This document shows, in pieces, positions 33,815-34,261 of a stretch of 64,000 nucleotides of DNA (within the stretch, counting starts at the first letter, position 1; each line of letters starts with the position of its first letter). Both the position numbers and the translations under genes were made by a program. The stretch comes from Escherichia coli O127:H6 str. E2348/69 (GTDB taxonomy: Bacteria > Pseudomonadota > Gammaproteobacteria > Enterobacterales > Enterobacteriaceae): the NCBI RefSeq assembly GCF_000026545.1, contig NC_011601.1; one strand, written 5' to 3'. The notes below the pieces were generated by a model that ran no database searches, had not been told where the DNA came from, and saw nothing but the letters and a program-made list of their open reading frames with translations.

Positions 33815-33954
33815 TTTAATTTGTTTTTAATTGTTATTTAAAACAGGCGTAAACCCGCAGGGGCTGGCTTACGCCTGAATCTGAGGAAGTTTATTTATGA
33901 ATATTGCTAAGCAAAAAAAATTCGCCCGCGAAATTAATCTGACAATCGTTTGTT

Positions 33955-34173
33955 TTAATCGTCTTGCGACCAGTTCTCAATCGACAGCAGATGTTCATCC
34001 AGCGCCGCAGCCAGAACGAACTCCCCACGTTCCTGAAGGCCGTGCTGGAAGTTGCGTAATTCAGAATCCAGGGCGCTGAGGTTCAGACAGCCATTTTCTG
34101 AAAGCTGTTTAACCAGAAAGCTCCACGCAGCTTTGTTAGCAGTAATTGCTGCCGCAATTTCATCATCAATCAT
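33955..34173 (-). CDS. Small highly acidic protein encoded antisense to the early operon
   Basis: 72-aa ORF (about 14 D/E against 4 K/R) with AGGAG RBS 8-9 nt upstream of its ATG and a downstream hairpin at 33845-33877 on the same strand. Confidence 0.5.
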   Translation of the reverse strand: MIDDEIAAAITANKAAWSFLVKQLSENGCLNLSALDSELRNFQHGLQERGEFVLAAALDEHLLSIENWSQDD

Positions 34174-34261
34174 TTTTTAACTCCTGATTGGGTATGTTGG
34201 GGCAGCGATTATGACAAGTGTTTTGTGGTTATAAGTTGATCAAAAACAATGAGTTACAACC

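What the first reader, a model, noticed from the sequence alone, without database searches (positions are those of the whole stretch)
33840..34200. Antisense small acidic gene embedded in the early operon
A 72-aa ORF on the minus strand (33955-34173) has a strong RBS (aggag 8-9 nt upstream of its ATG) and a downstream hairpin (33845-33877), while every other gene in the early region is on the plus strand. The product is very acidic (about 14 Asp/Glu against 4 Lys/Arg). Small acidic phage proteins are often DNA mimics or anti-restriction factors, and independently transcribed morons often act in lysogeny (exclusion or immunity).
Basis: inference. Interest (0 to 1): 0.6.

Follow-up and report, generated by a model that had tools for sequence, protein, structure and literature searches.

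The report
Conserved antisense small gene in Mu-like prophage
The 72-codon reverse-strand ORF is a real, conserved gene with its own start signals and terminator inside the early operon of a Mu-like prophage of E. coli E2348/69; it founds an unannotated family of small helical proteins, looks like a self-contained accessory ("moron") gene, and shows no sign of being a DNA mimic.

Summary
ORF 33955-34173(-) has AGGAG 7 nt before its ATG, 13 Asp/Glu against 4 Lys/Arg, and a -24 kcal/mol hairpin with a U run downstream. It is the only reverse gene in the early operon of a B3/Mu-like prophage inserted in eutC of EPEC E2348/69.

It is a real gene. About 21 protein clusters of 72-77 aa exist, all from Enterobacterales, with no Pfam, PHROG, NCBIfam, PADLOC or PDB match. 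In ten Mu-like loci from distinct sources, down to 33-39% identity, it holds the same place and orientation, divergent from the DUF2786 gene. dN/dS is 0.12-0.6. AlphaFold gives a confident three-helix bundle (pLDDT 88.7).

A -10-like element about 40 nt before the ATG, a GATC-containing motif and the hairpin are conserved with it. Intact copies under strong purifying selection (dN/dS 0.07-0.18) survive in IS-rich Serratia islands that have lost the prophage. The protein therefore works independently of the phage lytic programme.

Acidity is not conserved (pI 4.2-5.9) and the invariant residues are hydrophobic core positions, so the DNA-mimic reading is unsupported. About 51 of 58 related E. 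coli prophages carry a 169-bp deletion that destroys the gene.

Best reading: an autonomous accessory gene expressed independently of the early operon. Its molecular target is unknown.

The parts
33955..34173 (-). Small gene, 72 aa (WP_000564495.1 / B7UGF1); predicted three-helix bundle
   Evidence: ORF. PGAP CDS. Homologues of 72-77 aa. Reading frame open in 7 of 7 divergent loci. dN/dS 0.12-0.6. AF2 pLDDT 88.7.
34181..34185 (-). Shine-Dalgarno AGGAG, 7 nt before the ATG
   Evidence: Sequence. A GGAG/GAGG/AGGA element at the same spacing in all aligned loci.
34208..34216 (-). Promoter-like element TGtCATAAT (extended -10 type), about 40 nt before the ATG; the predicted transcript start is near 34201
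   Evidence: A -10-like hexamer at -39 to -43 ranks among the top three hits in 7 of 8 phage-context loci despite low flanking identity; in the eighth, L011, a GATAAT at that place was read by eye only. No good -35 was found. The tool's strict scan found no promoter. This part is inferred, not shown.
34236..34243 (.). TTGATCAA, the conserved GATC-containing motif (GATCAAyAAt...) in the divergent intergenic region
   Evidence: GATC(A) is invariant in 8 of 8 phage-context loci at -66 to -72 from the ATG. Three distant loci have two GATC sites 11 bp apart. The motif is retained in 3 of 5 relic loci. Its function is unknown.
33844..33877 (-). Hairpin followed by UUUU (33840-33843): probable intrinsic terminator of the minus-strand transcript
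   Evidence: -24 kcal/mol, z -6.2 on the minus strand against -19.6 kcal/mol, z -2.8 on the plus strand. Conserved in 8 of 8 phage-context loci, with an invariant outer stem GGCGTA/TACGCC and two covarying inner pairs. A single copy in the window.
33897..34079 (+). Forward ORF (60 aa) that converges on and overlaps the 3' 125 nt of the small gene; RBS GAGGA at 33883-33887
   Evidence: RBS, ATG and the first roughly 24 aa are conserved in all 8 loci. The rest is unconserved antisense 'shadow'. Its length is what the small protein's sequence predicts by chance. Peptide constraint is weak. PGAP calls it only where the small gene is truncated.
34095..34263 (.). 169-bp segment (codons 1-26, RBS, promoter region, DUF2786 leader) that is deleted in most related E. 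coli prophages
   Evidence: Alignment with E423. The junction lies at a CCAT microhomology and regenerates the DUF2786 ATG. The segment is present in 7 of the 58 E. coli complete genomes that carry the region.
34262..34972 (+). Divergent neighbour: DUF2786/DUF7168 gene (phrog_421), the conserved partner in synteny
33623..33814 (+). Upstream early gene (63 aa, phrog_5591) that ends just before the hairpin

Best explanation
The ORF is a genuine protein-coding gene in a self-contained minus-strand transcription unit of about 360 nt. The unit reads: promoter-like -10 near 34208-34216, then SD/ATG, then 72 codons, then hairpin plus U run at 33840-33877. It is embedded antisense in the early operon of a B3/Mu-like transposable prophage. 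Its product is a small, soluble, moderately acidic three-helix bundle. It has no catalytic or DNA-binding signature, so it most likely acts by binding another protein. The unit points against the repressor-controlled early operon and carries sigma-70-type signals. I therefore infer that it is expressed when the early operon is silent (in the lysogen) or at DNA entry, and that it serves the carrier cell rather than the lytic programme. In short, it is an accessory 'moron'-type gene. The most likely specific role is protection of the lysogen against other phages or mobile DNA, that is superinfection exclusion or defence. The Olg1 protein of beetrevirus Fc02 shows this role experimentally. Shown here: the gene is real, its position is conserved, it is under purifying selection, its signals are conserved, it persists outside prophages, and it is often lost in E. 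coli. Inferred: the timing of expression, the protein-binding mode and the exclusion role.
For: The window is E. coli E2348/69, and the prophage is Mu-like and inserted in eutC. The family has about 21 clusters of 72-77 aa, all from Enterobacterales. Position and orientation next to DUF2786 are the same in loci with only 33-61% protein identity. The reading frame is open in 7 of 7 loci, and dN/dS is 0.12-0.6. AF2 gives pLDDT 88.7 and three helices, and the AFDB model of B7UGF1 is identical. The RBS, a -10-like element at about -40, a GATC motif and the hairpin are all conserved. The hairpin is stronger on the minus-strand RNA, which also carries the U run. Relic copies lie in IS-rich islands of Serratia odorifera and Serratia sp. 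FS14 and on metagenome contigs without Mu genes. They still carry the upstream intergenic region and a decayed DUF2786 start, and they are under strong purifying selection, dN/dS 0.07-0.18 at dS about 0.8. Phage B3 lacks the unit, which shows it is an addition and not core. Precedent: Fc02 Olg1 is 7.9 kDa, is transcribed in the lysogen antisense to early genes, and excludes superinfecting phages (PMC9936078).
Against: There is no transcript evidence. No -35 was found, and the strict promoter scan found nothing. The relic loci lack the roughly 25-nt segment that holds the phage-type -10, so the true promoter is uncertain. No homology links the protein to Olg1 or to any exclusion, defence or immunity family. 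The fold matches are generic helical bundles. About 51 of 58 related E. coli prophages have lost the gene, so any benefit is conditional. Composition is only mildly atypical: GC 0.48 against 0.54-0.57 in the neighbours.
Confidence: 0.5

Rival explanations
1. DNA mimic or anti-restriction protein: an acidic surface imitates DNA and blocks restriction or other DNA-targeting defences at phage entry.
For: The window copy is acidic, with 13 D/E against 4 K/R and pI 4.28. It is small, helical and carries its own promoter-like signals, as many anti-defence genes do (my knowledge).
Against: Acidity is not conserved: D+E is 7-14, pI goes up to 5.9 and net charge falls to about -2. No invariant residue is acidic; the invariant set is A8 A9 I10 A12 N13 A16 W17 L20 L24 A55. 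There is no Pfam, PADLOC, PHROG or PDB match. The gene is retained under selection in chromosomal islands without a phage, which an entry-phase anti-restriction factor would not predict.
Confidence: 0.07
2. The unit is chiefly a cis-acting regulator. Convergent transcription or antisense RNA from the minus-strand promoter would damp or time read-through of the early transcript into DUF2786...gemA-mor, with the protein being secondary.
For: The convergent arrangement is conserved. The forward ORF start (RBS plus ATG) is conserved and runs into the antisense gene. The hairpin is conserved. The unit lies between the transposition genes and the gemA/mor regulators.
Against: The protein sequence is under purifying selection, most strongly in relic loci that have no early operon. 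Most E. coli relatives and phage B3 do without the unit. The length of the forward ORF needs no selection to explain it.
Confidence: 0.13
3. Orphan immunity protein or antitoxin that neutralises a protein toxin such as a bacteriocin, T6SS or Rhs-type effector, carried by the prophage as protection for the lysogen.
For: It is small, acidic and helical like colicin immunity proteins (my knowledge). Relic copies lie in islands with toxin-like genes: a protein of over 1211 aa with a weak Peptidase_C58 hit, and Rhs/Tc fragments. A related prophage carries Hcp plus Tlde1-domain cargo.
Against: The neighbours differ at every relic locus. The gaps are about 280-300 nt. Homology between relic loci is limited to the CDS and its own upstream region, which derives from the prophage arrangement. 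No toxin gene lies next to it in the prophages.
Confidence: 0.1
4. Dedicated partner or inhibitor of the adjacent DUF2786/DUF7168 early protein, as a divergently transcribed gene pair.
For: Strict adjacency and divergent orientation in all phage-context loci.
Against: Relic copies persist under selection with DUF2786 reduced to a roughly 50-nt remnant. About 51 of 58 E. coli prophages keep an intact DUF2786 gene but have lost the small gene. B3-type phages have DUF2786 without the small gene.
Confidence: 0.06
5. Not a functional gene: a chance ORF, or the shadow of the plus-strand 60-aa ORF.
For: No annotated family. PGAP calls the plus-strand ORF in loci where the minus ORF is truncated. Within E. 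coli the allelic differences are all non-synonymous, 5 against 0.
Against: The frame is open and selected across deep divergence. The structure prediction is confident. The plus-strand ORF is unconserved beyond about 24 aa and its length fits chance.
Confidence: 0.02

Closest known systems
Olg1 of Pseudomonas beetrevirus (B3-like) Fc02 (PMC9936078)
   Same: Olg1 is a small protein (7.9 kDa) of a B3-type transposable phage. It is encoded on the strand opposite the early operon and overlaps early genes in antisense. It has its own promoter and a nearby stem-loop. It is transcribed in the lysogen.
   Different: Olg1 lies next to the repressor gene in the lysis-lysogeny region, not between DUF3164 and DUF2786. 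No sequence similarity was found: tblastn against 50,697 phage records found nothing. Exclusion was shown for Olg1 and has not been tested here.
Prophage 'morons' (autonomous promoter-gene-terminator units such as those of lambda/HK97-type phages; my knowledge of the concept)
   Same: The unit has its own promoter-like element and terminator. Its orientation is independent of the surrounding operon. It is dispensable, patchy among close relatives, and slightly lower in GC than its neighbours.
   Different: It occupies one conserved position across a whole phage lineage down to 33-39% protein identity, rather than turning up sporadically. It outlives the prophage as a selected chromosomal gene.
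DNA-mimic anti-restriction proteins (Ocr, ArdA; my knowledge)
   Same: Small and acidic in the E. coli copy, and encoded on a mobile element.
   Different: The charge is modest and not conserved. There is no sequence or fold match. The conserved residues are hydrophobic core positions.
Anti-CRISPR/aca operons of Mu-like Pseudomonas phages (my knowledge)
   Same: Small accessory proteins of transposable phages that are driven by their own promoter.
   Different: Acr genes sit in the late region on the same strand as their neighbours and are followed by an HTH aca gene. No aca-like gene is present here, and PADLOC and Pfam give no hit.

Membership tests
Genuine protein-coding gene | Reading frame kept open and under purifying selection in diverged homologues | tested here: met
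   The frame is open in 7 of 7 loci while other frames are broken. dN/dS is 0.12-0.6 in phage loci and 0.07-0.18 in relic loci.
Genuine protein-coding gene | Translation signals and a foldable product | tested here: met
   An SD element at 7 nt is conserved. AF2 gives pLDDT 88.7 and pTM 0.72.
Moron / autonomous prophage accessory unit | Own promoter | tested here: inconclusive
   A -10-like hexamer at -39 to -43 ranks among the top three hits in 7 of 8 phage loci, with an extended TG in 4. No -35 was found, the strict scan was negative, and the segment is absent in relic loci.
Moron / autonomous prophage accessory unit | Own terminator | tested here: met
   A conserved GC-rich hairpin with a U run on the gene's strand only. 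Termination itself was not measured.
Moron / autonomous prophage accessory unit | Dispensable, with patchy presence among related phages | tested here: met
   Absent from B3. Truncated in about 51 of 58 E. coli genomes that carry the region.
Moron / autonomous prophage accessory unit | Expressed from the repressed prophage | not testable with these tools
   This needs strand-specific RNA-seq or 5'-RACE of the lysogen.
DNA mimic / anti-restriction (Ocr, ArdA and similar) | High, conserved negative surface charge | tested here: not met
   D+E is 7-14 of 72-77 residues and pI is 4.2-5.9. No acidic residue is invariant.
DNA mimic / anti-restriction (Ocr, ArdA and similar) | Sequence or fold similarity to a known mimic | tested here: not met
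Superinfection-exclusion proteins of beetreviruses (Olg1) | Homology to Olg1 | tested here: not met
   tblastn of two family members against all INPHARED phages found no match.
Superinfection-exclusion proteins of beetreviruses (Olg1) | Excludes superinfecting phage when expressed | not testable with these tools
   This needs a plating assay.
Toxin immunity / antitoxin | Conserved adjacency to a cognate toxin gene | tested here: not met
   The neighbours differ among relic loci, and none is toxin-like in the prophages.
ANR (AraC negative regulator) family, present two genes upstream | Sequence relationship | tested here: not met
   hhalign probability 0.3%.

The most novel reading that the evidence does not exclude
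The family is a new kind of small host-protective factor that originated in Mu-like prophages. It is switched by its orientation against the early operon, and perhaps by Dam methylation or a regulator acting at the conserved GATC motif (paired 11 bp apart in three distant loci). It is valuable enough that Serratia lineages kept it after the prophage decayed. If so, it would define a new exclusion, defence or immunity protein with a new target.
Probability: 0.15. Interest if true: 0.6.

Novelty: new member of a known kind. Interest (0 to 1): 0.35.

Why it matters
The finding turns an anonymous 'hypothetical protein' of the EPEC reference strain into a defined, testable unit. It is an unannotated three-helix protein family with a fixed antisense position in the early operon of enterobacterial B3/Mu-like prophages. 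It has its own signals, and it stays under selection after the prophage is gone. If it proves to be an exclusion, defence or immunity factor, it adds a new small protein to that repertoire. It would also give a second example, after Fc02 Olg1, of antisense-embedded lysogen genes in transposable phages. If it does nothing measurable, it is one more dispensable prophage accessory gene.

Tried and rejected
1. Library searches of the protein and of seven family members found nothing: Pfam, PHROGs, NCBIfam, PADLOC and PDB sequences, as single sequences and as a profile.

3. A scan of one genome per species found no relative, because the reference genomes lack the prophage. IMG/VR gave two loci. There was no tblastn hit in isolated phages or plasmids.

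4. I tested the idea that the plus-strand ORF is kept open by selection to keep the early transcript translated across the antisense gene. Synonymous-codon resampling shows that its length is expected from the small protein's sequence (P 0.03-0.8, not significant overall). Only its RBS and ATG are conserved.

5. I considered a toxin-immunity pairing with the large upstream proteins in Serratia and metagenome loci. I rejected it because homology between those loci stops at the CDS and its own phage-derived upstream region.

6. I looked for a shared operator with the left-end regulatory region. The only match was 15 of 17 nt between the DUF2786 leader and the repressor leader, which is marginal.

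7. The U8 run with a mini-hairpin at 33915-33935 is not stable (z -0.8) and not conserved, so I do not count it as a terminator.

8. Rfam gave only a sub-threshold Lnt RNA hit, 26.9 bits against a 55-bit gathering score.

9. The 844-aa hit P0021 is a tandem-repeat sequence with a weak local match, and I disregarded it.

10. Literature searches for the accession numbers and for DUF2786 found nothing relevant.

Full report
**Where the window comes from.** The region 33600-34400 is 100% identical to the chromosome of enteropathogenic E. coli O127:H6 E2348/69. NCBI's annotation of that stretch shows a Mu-type transposable prophage inserted in eutC. It reads: repressor (minus strand), ner-like HTH, Mu-type transposase, AAA ATPase (MuB-like), small ORFs, DUF3164, an 'ANR family' protein, a 63-aa ORF, the ORF in question (minus strand, hypothetical protein WP_000564495.1), DUF2786, more small ORFs, gp16/GemA, Mor and the lysis genes. 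The gene order matches Pseudomonas phage B3, where DUF3164 is followed directly by the DUF2786 homologue with nothing between them.

**Checking the observation.** The ORF 33955-34173(-) encodes 72 aa. AGGAG lies 7 nt before the ATG. The product has 13 Asp/Glu and 4 Lys/Arg, pI 4.28. The hairpin at 33844-33877 folds at -24 kcal/mol on the minus-strand RNA (z -6.2) and is followed by UUUUAAAU. On the plus-strand RNA it is weaker (-19.6 kcal/mol, z -2.8) and has no U run. It is the only minus-strand gene inside the early operon, and GC skew flips sign over it. So the description is correct.

**Is it a gene?**
- No library knows it: Pfam, PHROGs, NCBIfam, PADLOC and PDB sequences gave nothing.
- The word-indexed search found only near-identical E. 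coli and Salmonella copies and truncated forms.
- The exhaustive HMMER search found diverged relatives of the same length, 75-77 aa at 37-61% identity.
- Profile searches raised the family to about 21 clusters, all from Enterobacterales or metagenomes: Escherichia, Salmonella, several Serratia species and Trabulsiella.
- In every phage-context locus recovered, the gene lies in the same place and orientation. These loci are from Salmonella, Serratia fonticola, Trabulsiella, four metagenome or SRA contigs (L008, L009, L011, L018) and IMG/VR. The gene is antisense to the early operon and divergent from the DUF2786/DUF7168 gene, usually about 90 bp from it.
- The sense frame is open in 7 of 7 loci, whereas other frames are variably broken.
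- Pairwise dN/dS is 0.12-0.6.
- AlphaFold2 with a six-sequence alignment gives a confident three-helix bundle, pLDDT 88.7, identical to the AFDB model of B7UGF1.

It is a real gene and the founder of an unannotated family.

**Signals that travel with it.**
- Upstream, a -10-like hexamer sits 39-43 nt before the ATG in 7 of 8 phage-context loci, against a poorly conserved background: CATAAT, TAGAAT or AATAAT. In the eighth (L011) a GATAAT lies there by eye. A TG extension is present in four loci. No convincing -35 was found.
- The most conserved element of the intergenic region is GATC(A), about 24 nt further upstream. It is invariant in 8 of 8 loci. Three distant loci (L008, L018, L011) have two GATC sites 11 bp apart.
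- Downstream, the hairpin is conserved in all eight loci. Its outer stem GGCGTA/TACGCC is invariant and two inner pairs covary.
- In one E. coli relative the hairpin is duplicated on either side of an extra plus-strand 183-aa gene, which suggests that it marks a recombination-prone module boundary.

**A plus-strand ORF converges on the gene.** Directly after the hairpin, on the phage's forward strand, every locus has an RBS and an ATG. The ORF that follows has a conserved first stretch of about 24 residues (M-N/K-x-x-S...RE-I/V-x-x-T-I-x-x-F/Y-x-R/Q-L). Its remaining 35-55 residues are unconserved antisense translation of the small gene. Resampling synonymous codons of the small gene shows that this antisense frame stays open about as long by chance, and peptide constraint on the non-overlapping part is weak. 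I take it as a translated start of unknown use, not as the 'real' gene.

**Loss and survival.**
- Of the 58 complete E. coli genomes that carry this region, only 7 (five strains) keep the gene's 5' part.
- The rest have a 169-bp deletion between two CCAT repeats. It removes codons 1-26, the RBS and the promoter region, and it recreates the DUF2786 start codon. The gene is therefore dispensable for the prophage.
- The most divergent branch (about 32% identity) lies in IS-dense islands of Serratia odorifera and Serratia sp. FS14, and on metagenome contigs with no Mu genes.
- Alignment shows that these copies still carry the intergenic region with the GATCAAyAAT motif and a decayed remnant of the DUF2786 start. 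They are relics of the prophage arrangement.
- Among them dN/dS is 0.07-0.18 at dS about 0.8.

A gene that stays under strong purifying selection after its prophage has gone works for the cell. It does not depend on DUF2786 or on the lytic programme.

**What it is not.**
- Acidity varies across the family (D+E 7-14, pI 4.2-5.9).
- The invariant residues are A8, A9, I10, A12, N13, A16, W17, L20, L24 and A55. I10, N13, W17, L20 and L24 follow an a/d heptad stripe on helix 1 (my reading). They look like structural core positions, not a charged mimic surface.
- Fold searches return only generic helical bundles.
- The DNA-mimic idea therefore has no support beyond the charge of the E. coli copy.
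- The large toxin-like proteins upstream of two relic copies are unrelated to each other, and homology between those loci stops at the small gene's own upstream region. A cognate toxin-immunity pair is unlikely.
- The protein is unrelated to the ANR protein two genes upstream.

**Most likely mechanism.** The unit is autonomous, with sigma-70-type signals, and it faces the repressor-controlled early operon. It should therefore be transcribed when that operon is silent, or immediately at DNA entry. The hairpin would stop that transcript before it runs into the upstream early genes. The product is small and soluble, with no enzymatic or DNA-binding features, so it presumably binds a protein. The closest experimentally studied case is Olg1 of the B3-like phage Fc02. 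Olg1 is a 7.9-kDa protein transcribed in the lysogen antisense to early genes, and it excludes superinfecting phages (PMC9936078). That paper also cites earlier work assigning an exclusion function to the homologous early gene 10 of beetrevirus Ps56. By analogy I commit to a lysogen-protective accessory role, while stressing that expression timing and target are inferred. My confidence by level:
- About 0.9 that it is a real autonomous gene.
- About 0.6 that it is an accessory gene acting outside the lytic programme.
- About 0.3 for exclusion or defence specifically.

**Novelty and score.** The protein family is unannotated. Its fixed antisense position and its survival in prophage relics are worth knowing. 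In kind, however, it is a prophage accessory gene, so I file it as a new member of a known kind, with interest 0.35.

Noticed in passing
window ~27600-28250 (left prophage end); L001 1-345: The Mu-like prophage of E2348/69 is inserted in eutC, which PGAP annotates as a partial pseudogene next to the phage repressor. The ethanolamine-utilisation operon is therefore presumably disrupted in this strain.
   Followed up: no
window 33409-33642 (+): Two genes upstream, the prophage encodes a 77-aa protein that NCBI names 'ANR family transcriptional regulator' (phrog_2227). A phage-borne member of the AraC-negative-regulator family in an EPEC strain could touch virulence regulation. It is unrelated to the small gene (hhalign probability 0.3%).
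   Followed up: partly
window 34236-34243 and the equivalent sites in L006-L026: The GATC-containing motif (GATCAAyAAt) is the most conserved element upstream of the small gene. It is invariant in 8 of 8 phage loci and is kept in 3 of 5 relic loci. In L008, L018 and L011 two GATC sites lie 11 bp apart. This raises Dam methylation, SeqA or a dimeric regulator as a possible control, but it remains unexplained.
   Followed up: partly
window 33897-34079 (+): A forward ORF has a conserved RBS, ATG and first roughly 24 residues, and it runs antisense into the small gene. PGAP annotates it as a gene only in genomes where the small gene is truncated. It may be a translated leader. I found no evidence that its length is selected.
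   Followed up: yes
window 34095-34263 vs L002 / L003: The 169-bp deletion in most E. coli relatives lies between two CCAT repeats. It exactly regenerates the DUF2786 ATG and brings the forward ORF's stop to within about 14 nt of it.
   Followed up: yes
L003 1747-2402: In strain OkiPb01701 a 183-aa plus-strand gene of unknown function is inserted between two copies of the conserved hairpin. The hairpin seems to act as a cassette boundary.
   Followed up: partly
L011 1325-2183: A related Mu-like prophage on an SRA contig carries genes with T6SS_HCP and Tlde1-domain hits between the GemA gene (with an adjacent Mor-position gene) and the lysis genes. This looks like a T6SS effector-type cargo in a transposable phage.
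   Followed up: no
L016 4394-6724; L019 2-3637: Large proteins lie upstream of the relic copies. One is a 776-aa protein with four HTH-like repeats and a C-terminal 'GYHAEE...CIDCEK' motif that I read as deaminase-like; Pfam gives only one significant hit (HTH_Tnp_1, E 1.2e-4) plus weaker HTH matches. The other is a protein of over 1211 aa with a weak Peptidase_C58 (YopT-like) hit, E 0.012, and a LysM-like C-terminus by my reading.
   Followed up: partly
window 34242-34258 vs 28909-28925: The DUF2786 leader (AAAAACAATGAGTTACA) matches the leader of the repressor gene (AAAATCAATGAGTTATA) at 15 of 17 nt. The left-end copy fits the IHF consensus WATCAANNNNTTR. Significance is marginal: 16 shared 10-mers against a shuffle mean of 2.8 and a maximum of 9.
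   Followed up: partly
E. coli alleles (window vs L005, L002): All five differences between the window allele and the L005 allele are non-synonymous, and four of them fall in residues 34-43 (helix 2); the fifth is L63R. The truncated remnants carry the L005-type residues. This could be relaxed selection or diversification of a binding surface, but the number of changes is too small to tell.
   Followed up: partly
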